This document shows, one piece after another, positions 44,383 through 63,100 of a stretch of DNA of 64,000 nucleotides. How positions within the stretch are numbered: position 1 is the stretch's first letter; each line of letters starts with the position of its first letter. Source of the stretch: Octopus vulgaris. Its lineage: Eukaryota. The stretch lies in contig OX597827.1 of the NCBI GenBank assembly GCA_951406725.2, positions 19,282,001 through 19,346,000 of the forward strand. The letters run 5' to 3'. The position numbers were made by a program.

Positions 44383-47280
44383 GCAACAACAGCAGATGAT
44401 GACGATCTATCATGATCTATCACGATCTATCATGGCGACAGCAGCTCGCCATAATAGCCACTACACACATTTTTTTTCTCTTCTTGTTTTTTCTGTGTAC
44501 CTTTCTGTGGAAGAGCGTAGGCTCGAAATGTAAAAGACTTTTTCTATTCCTGAGCATTATACTAATACATCTGTTTGTTTTGTACACCACCTGTCTTCGT
44601 CTTTTGCTTTTTCCGTAAACTCACCCTATATATATATATATATAGCCCATACATACTACCAGCAAAATCATCAAGAAAATAAATGCTGGTCAAATGCAGG
44701 AGTGACTTATGCTTTTGTTCTTTCCACAAAAGCCTTTGTGGTTCTCATGATTAAGTTATAAGTCTTTGTTATTAAAGTTATTACTATTATTATTATTAAT
44801 GTTATTTTTGGTAATGATTAGTCGTTTTTATTATAACAATTTGTTGTTGTCATTATCATCAATCATCGACATTGTTGTTGTCGTTGTTGCTGTTGTTGCT
44901 ATTTGAGTGTTGATTCATCGGTTTAAAATGATTTGGTGTTCGTATGGTCGACAATGGACAATTGCTTGCTGTCTGTGGCATCGGCGGGCCACATCGAGGA
45001 CGAAGATTCACACGTGGCATCTGGAGCTGAGAGGGTTTTATCTTGGTTGGGTTGAGGTGCCAGTCCTTCACGATACAGCTGCAACTGCTCTAGGTACTTC
45101 TGGCACGCTGCCAAGCGTCTGTCTCCTTCTCTGTGCTGTGACTTTGCTCCAGTGGCAGTGGTGGTGTCAAAATCAGGGGCAGAAGACGGGGTCAGTAAGC
45201 TGTCCTTGTTCAACTGGGTATCCGATAGAGATGTGGCTGCTGGGACCGTACCAGGGGTGTATAACTGTTTTTTCTGTACATCATACAAATGCTGCTGAGT
45301 GGTTTCAATGTTCGACAAGGACAACAGTGGGGGAGAAACAGTTGCAGTTGATGATGCCAAACCAGATTTCTCAGGTGTGCAGGGATAGGTAGTACTACAC
45401 CCCTGTTGATGTTGATGGCTACTGACAGGGGATGATGGTGGGACAGTGCCTGATGCTGGACGAGGAACCCCTCTGGAAGCAGTTGATTGACTAGAATCAG
45501 TGCTGACATACTGAATGACGTCTGATGACAACCCTGGGACTTCACTGCAACTTGCTTTTTCAAATGGATTCTTGGAGAAAAGGGTGGGATTGAAACTGGA
45601 CTTGTACAATTTCATTGATTCAACTTCTTCAGGAGAAAAGTCTTTGTCAGAAATGGACAACCGAGAGAGGGCAGTCTGTGGAGGGGGTGACATCTTACTT
45701 TCGTCATCACCTACTACATCATCATCATCATCGTCGTCGTCGTCGTCATCCTCATCATCATCTTCATCATCGTCACATTTTGTTGAATTTGAGTCGGGCA
45801 ATGTTGCAGCCATAGCAACATCACTTGTACTGACTGGATTGGTGTTTGTTGTCTCGGCAACCAAGCTGTCACTACTGGCATCGGGAATCAACACATTGGC
45901 AAGGTGAGGCTCATCTCGGTTGGCGTCATGGTGACACGACTCTAACAACTCAGCTGGCAAAGAAACAGCATTCGTGCTGACACTGCTGCTGCTGCTGCTA
46001 CAGATTTCTCCGCAGTCTGCCGGGTGGCTGTGGAACCGCTGGAAATGCAGGTTCAAATGACCCCGACGACTAAAAAGCTGCGAACAGTAAATGCACTTAT
46101 ATTCCTTCTTGCGAGAATGTACCACCAGATGGCGTTTCATGTCTTTCCTCTTTGCAAAAACCTTGCTGCACTCCAAGCACTTATGGGTTTTGTCAAGGCC
46201 CTTCGGGTAAACAATCCCGCCGTGGATCTTCAGATGTAGTAAGAGATCATCCTTGTTGTCGTATTTCTTATTGCAGATCGGACAGTTGTTAATCTTACCC
46301 TTCTCTGCTGCATGCATTGCCATGTGTGTCTTGTGCATAAAGCGGGATATGTATTGCTTGCCGCACTGTTTGCACACCCATGTTGGCTTGTCCGGCTTGT
46401 GAGTGTTCAGGTGTGATGTCAGGTGATCACGCCGGCCAAAAGACTTCTCGCAGAAAAAACATTTGTGGTTTCGTGGTGCACTGTGAATGAGCATATGCCG
46501 ATCAAGGAGGAACTTCGACACGAACACTTTACTGCAGTTTTCTGTTGTGCATCGATGCAACACTTTCCGCCCATGTGCACACATTCTTCCACTACCGCCA
46601 CTGCTACAGTTATTGTTGTTACCTCCACCATGGCCTCCCCTCCTTTCCAGCTTACACGAGACACACTCATTCTTCCGGCTACGTTTCCGCATCACTGAAG
46701 GTGGGGAGATCAAGGCTAGCTTGGTAATTTTCGAACCTACGTCATCTGTGTCACTAGTGCCAAGTAACATCTGACCAAACGTTGCTTTAGAAGACCGGGT
46801 GACGCGTTTCAGATTTTGGTTACCGATGCCGCCGGCTTCCAGTGGAGTTGCACTTGAACGAATGTCAACGTTTCTCTCAATTTTCAAATCTTTGCTTTTG
46901 GTACCATGGATGACGTTGTCGATAGAGATGTTTTCTTTGCAAACTTTTGCAGCAACTGAACTCTTTGAACCTGCAAGCAACGCCAAAAAATACAAATTAT
47001 TAGCACATTCTTTTAAAAAAACCATTACCACAGCTTACATACCACATATCACTTCTCTCTCTTTCTCTTCTTCTCACTGTTTCTCTCTTTCTTTCTCTCT
47101 CTCTCTCTCTTTTGTGTGTGTGTGTGTGTGTCATCAAATATCAAAATAAAAAGGGATTAACATTCCAGGCGAAATACTTCATAAGCTGTCTGTAGATGAA
47201 CATACACCAGGCTAACTTATGCATCCTGTGATAGACATAGAAATCCTCACAATCTGAACTCAACAAGCAGTCACCAGTAG

Positions 47281-47323
<43 letters not shown>

Positions 47324-60100: not shown

Positions 60101-63100
60101 TGACCATAGGACTGCTTGGTTAGGGCTTACCTGGGGTTAAACAACAGCACCTTTCCCAGCTCCAGCAGGAAAATGTATAACCTATTTCTTTACTACCCAC
60201 AAGGGGCTAAACATAGAGGGGTCGAACAAGGACTGACAAACGGATTAAGTCGATTATATCGACCCCAGTGCGTAACTGGTACTTATTTAATCGACCCCGA
60301 AAGGATGAAAGGCAAAGTCGACCTCGGCGGAATTTGAACTCAGAATGTAGTGGCAGACGAAATACCGCTAAGCATTTCACCCGGCGTGCTAACGGTTCTG
60401 CCAGCTCGCCGCCTTTGTATAACCATTTTTTTGTCTAGTGGAGGTGCATGGTTTGGTGATTAAGATATTGAGTTTACGAGCATAAGATTGTGATTTTGAT
60501 TCCTGGACCAAGCAATGTCTTGTGTTCTTGAGCAAAACACTTCTTTTACATTGCTTCAGTCCACTCAGCTGGTAAAAATGAGTAAATCTTGTGAAGGTCT
60601 GGCGTCCCATCCAGGGAGGAATATACATATACCAGAGAAACTGGGAAACTGGCCCCTATGCCCCTTATAGGGTAATATGGTCTAACCATTTCTTTCCTTA
60701 CCTTTTAGGGGATGAGTCTTGAGATTTGGTCGAATAACTAGTCCTTTTGGCAGTGTGAGGTGGGCCATAGGAGGAATGACCCTGTCCGGAATGTCTTGAA
60801 GGGGTCCATGTTCAGGGCAGTCCCGATTATTGCTGCGTCCACATTCATGGCACCCTTAAAGGGGAAAAAAAAGAAAAGAATCAAATATTTGTTTCAAATC
60901 TTGGCACAAGACCATCAGTTTTAGTGAGGAGGAAGACAGTCAATCACATCAACCACCCCCAGTACTCGTCTGGTACTTATTTCATTGACCAAGAAAGAAC
61001 AAAATGCAAAATCAATTTAGGCAGAATTTGAACTCAGAACATAATGAGTCAGAAGAAATAACGAAAAGCACTTTTACCAACGTTCTAACAATTATGGAGC
61101 TTCAATGCTTTAGAAGACATCATCATCATCATCACCATCATCATCGTTTAACGTCTGCTTTCCATACTAGCATGGGTCGCACGATTTTGACTGAGGGTTG
61201 GCGAACCAGATGGTTGCACCAGGCTCCAATCTTGATTTGGCAGAGTTTCTACAGCTAGATTCCCTTCCTAACGCCAACCACTCCAAGAGTGTAGTGGGTG
61301 CTTTTTACGTGCCACCAGCACAGGGGCCAGTCAGGCAGTACTGGCAACGACCTTGCTCGAATCCTTTTACACATGCCATCAGCACAGGTGCCAGTAAGGC
61401 AACTTTGGTAATGATCACACTTGAATGGTAACCTTTTACGTGCCACTGGCACGGAAGCCAGTTGGCTGCTCTGGCAACGATCACACTCGGATGGTGCTCT
61501 TGGCACTCTACTAGCATGGGCACAAGTGCCAGTAAGGTGATGCTGGTAACTATCAGGCAATCAAATATTAATCAATATGGTGATGATGATGATGGTGGTG
61601 TTGATGATGGTAGTAGATCTTCCATCAACAGTTTTAATGATAAGCATTCAGTTGTTCAATCACCTCAACTACCGCCTCTTTCAATTATCATATAGACGGC
61701 TGAGTACTCCACCGACATATGTACCCTCCAGCATAATCCTCAGTCTGCCGAACCCCCCAATAAGCAGACACACAAAATATGAAAGACGACCATCAACCCA
61801 AAACCCCACAAAGACAAACACACAAGCAGCAAGACGTGCACGATACATGCAACCAACAACCTATAACACTTGGAGAGAACAAACAGAATATGAACAACCA
61901 CCAACACATAACACTGGACATCCTAAATGGACACACACATGGAACAATAAACAAGTGGATAGAAATCAACACATAACCTACAACAAACATCGAGGAAATC
62001 CAAAGCATACAAACACCAACCCCATGCGACGCCACAAAATTACAAGATGGATAAAAAACAACCCCCACTATCAATACAATACAAACACAAAACAAATGTA
62101 ATATGGTTGGACCTTTCAGTCACATGCACAATCCATCCAACAGGTTTCCATCTAGCCAATTTTATTCACAAGGCTTGGGTTAACCTAAGGTCATAAAAAA
62201 AAAAAAAAGGTAACCAAAAGGTGCCATACCATAGGATTGAAACCAAAACATGACTATGAAGTGAGGTTCTTAAGTGCTCAGCTAAGCCTGCAGTCATTAG
62301 GGGCCAATATAAATCATCTCGTCTGATCATAAACCCACTCAAAGCTGACCTGGGGTTCAACAACAACAATGACAGCCTGTTAGACCTATAAGAAATAATA
62401 ACCAAATCACCCTCAAACCACACTACATCCTACCATCATCACCGTCATCGTCGTCATCATCATCATCACTTTAACGTCCACTTTTACCATGATAGGGTGC
62501 AGAGAGCACCATACAAGCGTGATCATTGACAGAGCGGCTAATCGGCTTCCGTGCCAGTGGCACTTAAAGGGCACCATTCAAGCGTGATCGTTACCAGCGT
62601 CGCCTTACTGGCACTTGTGCCCATGCTAGTAGGGTGCCAAGAGCACCATCCAAGCGTGATCGTTGCCAGAGTAGCCAACTGGCTTCCGTGCCAGTGGCAC
62701 GTAAAAGGGCACCATTCGAGTGTGATCATTACCAAAATCGCCTTCTGGCACCTGTGCTGATGGCATGTGTAAAAGGATTCGAGCGAGGTCATTGCCAGTA
62801 TCACCTGACTGGCCCCTGTGCCGGTGGCACGTAAAAAGCACCCACTACACTCTCGGAGTGGTTGATGTTAGGAAGGGCACCCAGCTCTAGAAACTCTGCC
62901 AAATCAAGATTGGAGCCTGGTGCAGCCATCTGGTTCGCCAGCCCTCAGTCAATATCGTCCAACCCATGCTAGCATGGAAAGCGGACATTAAATGATGATG
63001 ATGATGATGATGATGTAAGGGTCAAACAAGAGTTTATTCAGGCAGATTTTCGATGGCCAGATGCCCTTCCTGTCACCAACCCTTACTTGTTTCCTAACAA

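What the first reader, a model, noticed from the sequence alone, without database searches (positions are those of the whole stretch)
44923..60854. Hidden PRDM-PLAG chimeric transcription factor: zinc knuckle and PR/SET domain spliced to a PLAG1-type zinc-finger array
Seen: six minus-strand exons (60702-60854, 58652-58779, 57710-57874, 54359-54473, 52754-52957, 44923-46970), all with GT-AG sites and matching phases, give one stop-free frame of at least 937 aa; the start exon was not found. The four knuckle/PR-SET exons are not represented in the correct frame in the ORF track. Established: the knuckle and CNWMMFVR/QNL.AYQ/ELRV.YAA.YA motifs are PRDM4/10/15-type, and vertebrate PLAG1/PLAGL1/PLAGL2 have this finger array but no PR/SET domain. 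Inference: either PLAG genes descend from a PRDM gene that lost its PR domain in vertebrates, or this is a lineage-specific fusion giving a PLAG-site binder a chromatin module. I cannot tell whether this architecture is already catalogued in other invertebrates.
Basis: partly seen in the sequence, partly recalled or inferred. Interest (0 to 1): 0.82.

Follow-up and report, generated by a model that had tools for sequence, protein, structure and literature searches.

The report
Octopus PR-domain PLAG-type zinc-finger gene
This is a real, already annotated octopus transcription-factor gene that joins a PRDM-type PR/SET domain to a PLAG-type zinc-finger array; the same combination occurs in locusts and apparently in chordates, so it is an old gene family and not an octopus-specific fusion.

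Summary
The six minus-strand exons are real. All have AG/GT sites and matching phases. Their translations are exact, ordered substrings of a public 941-aa protein, 'PR domain zinc finger protein 10-like [Octopus vulgaris]'. That model adds only MDGI(W) from a start exon that lies outside the window. So the gene is not hidden.

[quoted passage not shown] The fingers align collinearly with fingers 2-7 of insect proteins that NCBI names PLAG1-like. They do not resemble the fingers of PRDM4-like or PRDM10/15-like proteins.

The architecture is not lineage-specific. In total, 23 of 153 PR-bearing proteins examined carry this array. They include Schistocerca and Anabrus 'PLAG1-like' proteins. An atlas cluster of 347 mostly chordate proteins named PLAGL1 has a PR domain in 98% of its members.

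An AU test does not reject one clade for these PR domains. PR-less insect PLAG1-like proteins nest among PR-bearing ones, which points to PR loss.

A direct comparison with vertebrate PLAG1, PLAGL1 and PLAGL2 could not be made. Seven literature searches found no paper describing this family.

The parts
60702..60854 (-). It carries the last 2 bases of the W codon, the zinc knuckle CHECGRSNNRDCPEHG and the start of the PR domain.
   Evidence: AG/GT sites. Pfam PF18445 scores 23.8 bits on the exon alone and 26.4 bits (cut-off 25.8) in P0001. Exact match to P0001 residues 6-55.
58652..58779 (-). PR-domain exon (VSERGVFAKRVIPARSKFGP...).
   Evidence: AG/GT sites, with an alternative in-frame AG 6 nt downstream. 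P0001 and P0002 both support the upstream acceptor. Weak Pfam PF21549 match on its own.
57710..57874 (-). PR-domain core exon (CNWMMFVRSA...QNLEAYQ).
   Evidence: AG and GTAAGT sites. Pfam PF21549 at 48.2 bits against a cut-off of 27. PDB PRDM4 35 bits and PRDM10 27 bits.
54359..54473 (-). Last PR-domain exon (GDELRVGYAANYA).
   Evidence: AG/GT sites. Lies inside the PF21549 match of P0001, residues 50-173. Exact match to P0001 residues 154-191.
52754..52957 (-). Linker exon with no known domain. Skipping it would also keep the frame.
   Evidence: AG/GT sites. No Pfam family. Present in P0001, and 60% identical over 58 aa to P0002.
44923..46970 (-). Last exon: linker, six-finger array, acidic and Ser/Thr-rich tail, TAA stop.
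   Evidence: AG site. 681 aa without a stop. C2H2 Pfam families. TAA stop.
46030..46557 (-). The six C2H2 fingers, equivalent to PLAG-type fingers 2-7. Finger 1 is not recognisable.
   Evidence: Coordinates. Collinear alignment including the unusual linkers. 43% identity over 182 aa, E 9e-46, to Schistocerca 'PLAG1-like'. A single 143-bit match to an insect-only array profile, positions 30-204.
45697..45774 (-). Run of Asp/Glu residues in the C-terminal tail.
   Evidence: Seen in the translation. Function not tested.

Best explanation
Window 44923-60854 (minus strand) holds all but the first 13 coding bases of one Octopus vulgaris gene. It encodes a 941-aa nuclear transcription factor.

**Layout.** An N-terminal zinc knuckle and PR/SET domain come first. 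A linker of about 200 residues follows. Then come six C2H2 fingers homologous to fingers 2-7 of the PLAG-type seven-finger array, and a long low-complexity tail.

**Family.** It is a divergent cephalopod member of an old animal family of PR-bearing PLAG-type proteins. It is not a new fusion, and it is not a PRDM10 orthologue as its database name suggests.

**Likely mode of action (inferred, not shown).** The fingers bind a specific, probably G/C-rich, DNA site. The knuckle plus PR module recruits chromatin modifiers or other partners, as reported for PRDM4. PR-less PLAG proteins of many insects, and probably of mammals, are descendants that lost the PR exons.
For: **One gene.**
- Splice sites and phases are correct.
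- The exon translations are exact substrings of P0001.
- P0002 has the same layout on a 3002-nt contig.

**Domains.**
- PF21549 scores 87.2 bits, SET 29.3 bits and PF18445 26.4 bits, plus C2H2 families.

**PLAG-type fingers.**
- The array aligns collinearly with nine insect PLAG1-like relatives (two of them NCBI-named).
- It scores 143 bits on an array profile built without cephalopods. The best PR protein outside the 23 scores 95 bits or less, and generic poly-finger proteins score 93 bits or less.
- In a BLAST of the finger region against all 277 stored proteins, ranks 1-140 are PLAG-type arrays, apart from one partial cephalopod protein. The first other hit is at rank 141, with 30% identity.
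- The nearest non-cephalopod arrays (P0169, P0235, P0159, P0160) are 48-52% identical and all carry a PR domain.

**Old family.**
- 23 of 153 PR-bearing proteins have this array. All 23 have Pfam PF21549, and 21 of 23 match a knuckle pattern.
- Schistocerca and Anabrus proteins have it.
- A chordate atlas cluster named PLAGL1 has a PR domain in 98% of 347 members.
- Holding the 18 PR domains of such proteins together as one clade gives a log-likelihood 16 units higher than the free quick tree, with p-AU 0.788.

**PR loss.**
- 40 named PR-less insect proteins nest within a clade that holds PR-bearing Schistocerca, Anabrus and P0134. PR-bearing rows lie outside that clade.

**Partner recruitment by PRDM4** is taken from passages of PMC3811882.
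Against: - No octopus RNA evidence was available here. P0001 is a computed model.
- The octopus array sits on a very long branch (stem 2.8 changes per column) and lacks finger 1.
- Base-contact residues differ from the family consensus. Finger 7 reads RGHL against RDHR. Finger 6 reads KKDR against TKDR (20 of 23). Binding to a PLAG-type site is therefore not assured.
- On free trees the octopus PR domain does not join the other PR-PLAG domains. It sits on an unresolved backbone.
- The 23 PR-bearing members were found by a PR-domain search, and the PR-less ones come only from insects. The tree is therefore a biased sample, and it contains no vertebrate PLAG1, PLAGL1 or PLAGL2.
- Chordate membership rests on one atlas result, which the tool itself rates as a lead.
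- The trees are quick searches. The careful search did not finish.
Confidence: 0.82

Rival explanations
1. The gene is an ordinary octopus orthologue of PRDM10/15 (as NCBI names it) or of PRDM4, and its fingers merely look PLAG-like.
For: - NCBI names it PRDM10-like.
- For exon 3 the best solved structures are PRDM4 (35 bits) and PRDM10 (27 bits).
- For the family's PR profile the scores are PRDM10 107.8 bits and PRDM4 104.8 bits.
- The backbone of the PR tree is unresolved.
Against: - The finger array is collinear with PLAG1-like arrays, including the unusual linkers.
- Arrays from the clade that holds a true PRDM10 (P0158, 260.9 bits to PDB 3ihx) score 41-110 bits on the full array profile; on the insect-only profile no protein outside the 23 exceeds 95 bits. 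Arrays from the PRDM4-like clade score 22-93 bits. The octopus array scores 143 bits on the insect-only profile.
- The first non-PLAG array appears only at rank 141 in the BLAST ranking.
- The knuckle starts at residue 6. PRDM4 is described as having a long N-terminal domain that includes the knuckle (PMC3811882 passage).
- The octopus PR domain is in no starred clade with PRDM10-like or PRDM4-like rows.
Confidence: 0.08
2. The gene is a cephalopod-specific fusion of a PRDM gene's 5' exons to a PLAG-type finger exon.
For: - The octopus PR domain and finger array are both very divergent.
- The word-based search with the PR region found only 3 proteins, 2 of them cephalopod.
Against: - The same order of N-terminal knuckle, PR domain and PLAG-type array is seen in Schistocerca and Anabrus and in 19 further unnamed representatives.
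- A chordate cluster shows the same combination.
- One clade for all these PR domains is not rejected, and it has the higher likelihood.
- The nearest arrays to the octopus array are PR-bearing.
Confidence: 0.04
3. The model is an annotation artefact: two neighbouring genes, a PR gene and a finger gene, wrongly joined across the 5.8-kb intron.
For: - No transcript data for this species were available.
- P0001 is a computed model.
- The 52754>46970 junction spans an intron that holds a LINE reverse-transcriptase ORF.
Against: - P0002 carries both parts on a contig of 3002 nt, against a coding length of 2811 nt.
- Phases match at every junction.
- Exon 5 and the start of exon 6 are conserved with P0002.
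- The same layout recurs in 23 proteins.
Confidence: 0.03

Closest known systems
PR-bearing 'PLAG1-like' and 'PLAGL1' proteins in public databases: Schistocerca serialis cubense P0115, Anabrus simplex P0127, and an atlas cluster of 347 mostly chordate proteins
   Same: - The knuckle sits at the very N-terminus, followed by the PR domain, a long linker and the PLAG-type array.
- The finger region is 43% identical to Schistocerca over 182 aa.
- Contact residues of fingers 2, 3 and 6 are almost the same.
   Different: - The octopus protein lacks finger 1.
- It lacks the C-terminal LPxFxQxF motif, which is found in 8 of 23 members.
- It lacks the extra WxCxxC...HxC finger after the PR domain, which is found in 10 of 23 members.
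- Its finger 7 contact residues differ.
Mammalian PLAG1, PLAGL1 and PLAGL2
   Same: The finger array is of the same type. This is judged only indirectly, from NCBI's names for the insect homologues, from atlas clusters named PLAGL1 and PLAGL2 that match P0144, and from my recall of the human PLAG1 fingers.
   Different: By my knowledge (recalled) the mammalian proteins have seven fingers and no knuckle or PR domain. The octopus protein has six fingers plus a knuckle and a PR domain.
PRDM4
   Same: - Zinc knuckle followed directly by the PR domain and six C2H2 fingers (PMC3811882 passage).
- It is the best solved-structure match for exon 3.
- The solved PRDM4 knuckle (2l9z) matches the family profile at 27 bits.
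   Different: - In PRDM4 the knuckle lies within a long N-terminal domain. In octopus it starts at residue 6.
- Arrays of the PRDM4-like clade score 22-93 bits on the PLAG array profile.
PRDM10/15 subfamily
   Same: The group has a knuckle and a PR domain. The CNWMMFVR motif is shared. It is the source of the gene's database name.
   Different: - The proteins are much longer, 804-1726 aa in the PRDM10/15-like clade, with the PR domain starting at residues 103-641.
- Their fingers are not PLAG-like.

Membership tests
PRDM family (PR/SET plus C2H2 fingers) | PR subtype of the SET domain | tested here: met
   PF21549 scores 87.2 bits (cut-off 27) and SET 29.3 bits (cut-off 22.4) on P0001. Exon 3 alone scores 48.2 bits.
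PRDM family (PR/SET plus C2H2 fingers) | C2H2 zinc fingers C-terminal to the PR domain | tested here: met
   C2H2 Pfam families are found in exon 6. Six fingers lie at window 46030-46557.
Knuckle-bearing PRDM group (PRDM4/10/15) | Zinc knuckle immediately before the PR domain | tested here: met
   PF18445 scores 26.4 bits against a cut-off of 25.8 on P0001, which is marginal, and 23.8 bits on exon 1 alone. The pattern CxxC...CxxHG is at residue 6.
PRDM10/15 subfamily | The PR domain groups with true PRDM10/15, and the fingers are of that subfamily | tested here: not met
   The octopus PR domain is not in the starred clade that holds P0158, which is confirmed as PRDM10 by 260.9 bits to PDB 3ihx. 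On the insect-only profile no protein outside the 23 exceeds 95 bits, against 143 for the octopus array. The first such array appears at BLAST rank 141. The tree backbone is unresolved.
PRDM4 subfamily | Long N-terminal region containing the knuckle, and a PR domain that groups with PRDM4 | tested here: not met
   The octopus knuckle starts at residue 6, against the long N-terminal domain of PRDM4 (PMC3811882). The octopus PR domain is not in the PRDM4-like clade. That clade is labelled by P0203, whose only PR match in the PDB is PRDM4, at 89 bits.
PLAG-type finger array | Collinear seven-finger array with the family's unusual linkers between fingers 3-4, 4-5 and 5-6 | tested here: inconclusive
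   Fingers 2-7 and their linkers align, with a single 143-bit match to an insect-only profile. Finger 1 is absent. No curated family model exists, so the profile is my own.
PLAG-type finger array | Conserved base-contact residues in fingers 3, 6 and 7 | tested here: inconclusive
   Finger 3 reads RDHS against the consensus RDHN. Finger 6 reads KKDR against TKDR. Finger 7 reads RGHL against RDHR. The roles of these fingers in PLAG1 are recalled, not tested.
PLAG-type finger array | Direct similarity to vertebrate PLAG1, PLAGL1 and PLAGL2 | not tested
   No named vertebrate PLAG sequence could be retrieved. Only names and atlas clusters bear on this.
PR-bearing PLAG family (no published name found) | N-terminal knuckle and PR domain together with a PLAG-type array in one protein | tested here: met
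   P0001 is one of 23 such proteins. One clade for their PR domains is not rejected, p-AU 0.788.

The most novel reading that the evidence does not exclude
PR-bearing PLAG proteins form a separate, ancient bilaterian branch of the PRDM family. This branch shares the zinc knuckle with PRDM4 and PRDM10/15, and it has no name in the published Prdm classification that I could read. The well-known PR-less PLAG oncogene family (PLAG1, PLAGL1, PLAGL2) and the PLAG1-like genes of bugs, thrips and beetles would then be descendants that independently lost the knuckle and PR exons.
Probability: 0.5. Interest if true: 0.55.

Novelty: new member of a known kind. Interest (0 to 1): 0.38.

Why it matters
For the octopus genome this is an ordinary, already predicted gene whose database name (PRDM10-like) is probably misleading.

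The wider point is modest but useful. The PLAG growth-regulator and oncogene family may be a branch of the PRDM family that lost its chromatin module in mammals and in many insects. Locusts, cephalopods and apparently many non-mammalian chordates keep the full form.

If that holds, it gives a natural experiment on what a PR domain adds to a fixed DNA-binding array. It would also add a missing subfamily to accounts of Prdm evolution. I saw passages only of Vervoort et al., PMC4760075, not its supplements.

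Tried and rejected
**Steps that led nowhere.**
- The atlas search with the finger region returned only generic C2H2 clusters.
- The word-based search with the PR region of P0001 found 3 proteins, only one of them outside cephalopods.
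- The solved-structure search with exon 6 returned only generic finger proteins, with no PLAG or PRDM4 fingers.
- The start-exon pattern had 0 matches in the window.
- The careful PR tree did not finish in 288 s, so a quick tree was used instead.

**Design choices.**
- Any finger-containing query for the representative search was rejected beforehand. A 1517-aa poly-finger protein had scored 443 bits against the array profile, so such queries would have been swamped.
- I considered the idea that vertebrate PRDM4 fingers are PLAG-like and dropped it. PRDM4-like arrays score 22-93 bits. Its reported site, GGGn(1-4)CTnGAAAC (PMC3811882), is not evidently the PLAG site as I recall it.

**Literature.**
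- Seven searches were answered, and one more failed on a term format.
- They covered PLAG with Prdm, PR domain, SET domain, zinc knuckle, invertebrate orthologues and 'plagx'.
- None returned a paper on PR-bearing PLAG proteins. 'plagx' gave 0 papers.

**Left out.**
- Searching or folding a protein joined from the window's exons. Exons were searched one by one, and whole-protein work used the public proteins P0001 and P0002.
- No structure prediction and no complex prediction was run.
- The closed metagenome and viral collections, and the supplements of PMC4760075, stayed unchecked. Those supplements may list how such genes were classed.

Full report
**1. The observation**

Reading the minus strand at each proposed boundary shows an AG before and a GT after every internal exon, at exactly the coordinates given. 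The phases chain without a break. The last exon ends in TAA at 44925-44923.

Each exon was translated on its own, giving 50, 42, 55, 38, 67 and 681 residues with no stops. Each is an exact substring, in order, of one public protein, P0001. One split-codon residue lies at each phase-1 junction.

P0001 is 941 aa long and NCBI names it 'PR domain zinc finger protein 10-like [Octopus vulgaris]'. It adds only M-D-G-I and the first base of a Trp codon. A degenerate pattern for that start has 0 matches in the window, so the start exon lies beyond position 64000.

The gene is not hidden from annotation.

Two small points:
- A second in-frame AG lies 6 nt inside exon 2. Both P0001 and P0002 fit the upstream site.
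- Skipping exon 5 would also keep the frame. However, exon 5 is present in P0001 and 60% identical over 58 aa in P0002.

That step was left out, and whole-protein work used the public proteins.

**2. Is it one gene?**

P0001 is a computed model, so its identity to the exons is not independent evidence of splicing.

P0002 is independent. It is 937 aa long, 57-74% identical exon by exon, and comes from an unnamed source. It has the same layout from knuckle to C-terminus and sits on a contig of only 3002 nt. A coding length of 2811 nt leaves no room for introns like the 15.9-kb span seen here. The contig is therefore transcript-like.

The same layout recurs in many other proteins (section 4).

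**3. Domains**

- On single exons, Pfam finds the PR zinc knuckle (PF18445, 23.8 bits), the PR domain (PF21549, 48.2 bits on exon 3) and C2H2 fingers in exon 6.
- On P0001 the scores are 87.2 bits for PF21549, 29.3 for SET and 26.4 for PF18445 (cut-off 25.8).
- Among solved structures, exon 3 matches PRDM4 best (35 bits) and then PRDM10 (27 bits).
- A profile of the family's knuckle plus PR region matches PRDM10 (107.8 bits), PRDM4 (104.8), then PRDM11, PRDM9 and PRDM1. It also matches the solved PRDM4 knuckle (27 bits).

**4. The fingers and the family**

*First searches.* A word-based search with the finger region found 19 proteins. These were the octopus protein, two other cephalopod-like proteins, generic poly-finger proteins, and a set at 41-43% identity that includes 'zinc finger protein PLAG1-like [Adelges cooleyi]'.

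The alignment shows the six octopus fingers collinear with fingers 2-7 of the insect proteins. This includes the non-canonical linkers after fingers 3, 4 and 5.

A profile search listed the best 120 of 1431 proteins. Nearly all the named ones are from insects, apart from one shark poly-finger protein (P0105). Many are named PLAG1, PLAG1-like or PLAGL1-like by NCBI.

Two of the 120 carry PR-domain Pfam families:
- 'PLAG1-like [Schistocerca serialis cubense]', 941 aa.
- An Anabrus simplex protein, 1012 aa.

Their sequences begin with a knuckle at residue 9, followed by a PR domain, just as in octopus. The aphid proteins begin just after the point where the PR domain would end. They share the following RQLR...C..C segment with the locust protein.

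*Sensitive PR-domain search.* Finger-containing queries are swamped by poly-finger proteins. One such protein of 1517 aa scored 443 bits. I therefore used the one sensitive search on a knuckle plus PR profile (A2; results).
- 2541 proteins had E up to 0.001.
- 998 had E up to 1e-10.
- 72 had E up to 1e-30.
- The best 150 were listed.

- 23 give one full-length match of 125 bits or more, and the rest score 124 bits or less.
- With a profile built from insects only, the same 23 score 112-377 bits. Octopus scores 143 and P0002 scores 138. The next protein scores 95, and generic poly-finger controls score 29-93.
- All 23 have Pfam PF21549.
- 21 of 23 match a knuckle pattern near the N-terminus. 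The other two look truncated.

*BLAST ranking.* In a BLAST of the octopus finger region against all 277 stored proteins, 233 gave hits. Ranks 1-140 are all PLAG-type arrays, apart from a partial cephalopod protein. The first other array is at rank 141, with 30% identity and 97 bits. The closest non-cephalopod arrays are 48-52% identical and all are PR-bearing.

*Chordates.* An atlas search with one member, P0144, found a cluster auto-named 'Zinc finger protein PLAGL1'.
- Its representative is 725 aa long, and it has 347 members.
- 98% of members carry PF21549.
- Chordata is the commonest phylum among the 346 with a record.
- It was rank 6 by features and first by structure, next to PR-less 'PLAGL2' and 'PLAGL1 (Fragment)' clusters.

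The tool rates such hits as leads. Several unnamed members (P0268, P0144, P0147, P0176) have arrays that, from my recall of human PLAG1, look very close to it. Three of these four (not P0268) end in LPRFHQAFQ or LPRFHQVFQ. This is recall, not a test.

**5. Trees**

*PR domains.*
- On a quick tree of 146 PR domains, and on a 70-row subset (where the careful search did not finish), the PR-PLAG domains fall into three groups on an unresolved backbone. These are an insect-type group, a group of 11-12 rows, and octopus plus P0002 on a long branch.
- Separate starred clades hold a confirmed PRDM10 (P0158) and PRDM4-like proteins (P0203).
- The group of 18 was defined from the fingers, not from the tree. 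An AU test of holding these 18 together found a tree 16 log-likelihood units better than the free quick tree, with p-AU 0.788. One origin of the combined architecture is therefore not rejected. The test does not prove a clade.

*Finger arrays.* The tree has 63 rows, 23 with a PR domain and 40 named insect proteins without.
- The PR-less proteins, from bugs, thrips, beetles, a lacewing and a stick insect, nest in a clade (support 86) with the PR-bearing locust, cricket and P0134.
- PR-bearing rows lie outside that clade.
- The label needs 3 changes on the tree.

This points to loss of the PR exons within insects.

*Bias.* The non-insect rows were found through their PR domain. PR-less non-insect PLAG proteins, including the mammalian ones, are absent from this tree.

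**6. How it probably works**

*Shown.* The domain layout, and the conservation of most base-contact positions. At helix positions -1, 2, 3 and 6:
- Finger 2 reads SFLR against the consensus SFKR.
- Finger 3 reads RDHS against RDHN.
- Finger 6 reads KKDR against TKDR.
- Finger 7 reads RGHL against the nearly invariant RDHR. In P0002 it reads LDQR.

*Inferred.* The protein is a sequence-specific DNA-binding factor. The G/C-rich bipartite PLAG site is my recall, and the changed finger 7 makes an altered core site likely.

The knuckle plus PR module most likely acts through partners. For PRDM4, interaction with HDACs and Prmt5 is reported, and DNA binding is by the fingers alone (PMC3811882, passages). 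Whether this PR domain methylates anything was not tested.

**7. Comparison with what is known**

- The Prdm classification of Vervoort et al. (PMC4760075; passages only; supplements closed) defines 14 subfamilies from the PR domain. It treats Prdm4 and Prdm10/15 as ancestral bilaterian genes and reports Prdm4 as lost in pancrustaceans. It holds none of the words 'PLAG', 'knuckle' or 'Octopus'.
- A bivalve study lists a 'PRDM4-like' protein of 881 aa with 4 fingers (PMC10451705, passages). That might be the orthologue, but I did not check.
- Seven answered searches found no paper linking PLAG proteins with a PR domain or a knuckle. The library lacks most subscription journals.

**8. Verdict**

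This is a real and correctly delimited gene that is already predicted in public annotation. It is not a chimera.

It is a divergent cephalopod member of a widespread family of PR-bearing PLAG-type factors that the databases name inconsistently: PRDM10-like, PLAG1-like or PLAGL1. The vertebrate step remains untested.

Noticed in passing
window 49108-51603 (+): An 831-aa open frame with a reverse-transcriptase domain (104.6 bits) and a weak PHD finger. It is a non-LTR retroelement lying inside the 5.8-kb intron between exons 5 and 6, on the opposite strand.
   Followed up: partly
window 56188-57088 (+): Broken Tc1/mariner-type transposase frames in the intron between exons 3 and 4. Pfam HTH_Tnp_Tc3_2 scores 51.9 bits on 56400-56744.
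   Followed up: partly
window 10513-12387 (-): A 624-aa open frame with a weak reverse-transcriptase match (32.1 bits). By eye, its C-terminal stretch recalls a GIY-YIG nuclease, as in Penelope-like elements. This was not tested.
   Followed up: partly
window 25112-25636 (+): A 174-aa open frame matching Pfam CR6_interact (GADD45GIP1 / mitochondrial ribosomal protein family, 47.4 bits). It is probably an exon of a neighbouring gene.
   Followed up: partly
window 52980-53824 and 19223-19831: Long tandem low-complexity arrays that read open in several frames on both strands. Many microsatellites and a recurring SINE-like unit (frames reading ...HASMGWTV...) are scattered through the introns and flanks.
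   Followed up: no
proteins P0144, P0268, P0176, P0147, P0148, P0141, P0235, P0160, P0169: Ten of 23 PR-PLAG proteins carry an extra conserved finger-like motif, WxCxxCxxxFxxFxxLExHxC, just after the PR domain. Eight of 23 end in LPxFxQxF, a motif also at the C-terminus of PR-less aphid proteins. Octopus has neither.
   Followed up: partly
PR tree: Two large unnamed clades of knuckle plus PR proteins have ordinary fingers. One has 43 rows with the PR domain at or near the N-terminus and lengths of 157-2173 aa. The other has 38 rows, 100% support, and is sister to the PRDM4-like clade. Their identity and taxa are unknown.
   Followed up: no
proteins P0235, P0159, P0160, P0169: These are the octopus array's nearest non-cephalopod relatives. 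Their PR domain matches in two pieces. In P0235 (sequence seen) a long Gln/His-rich insertion lies inside the PR domain.
   Followed up: no
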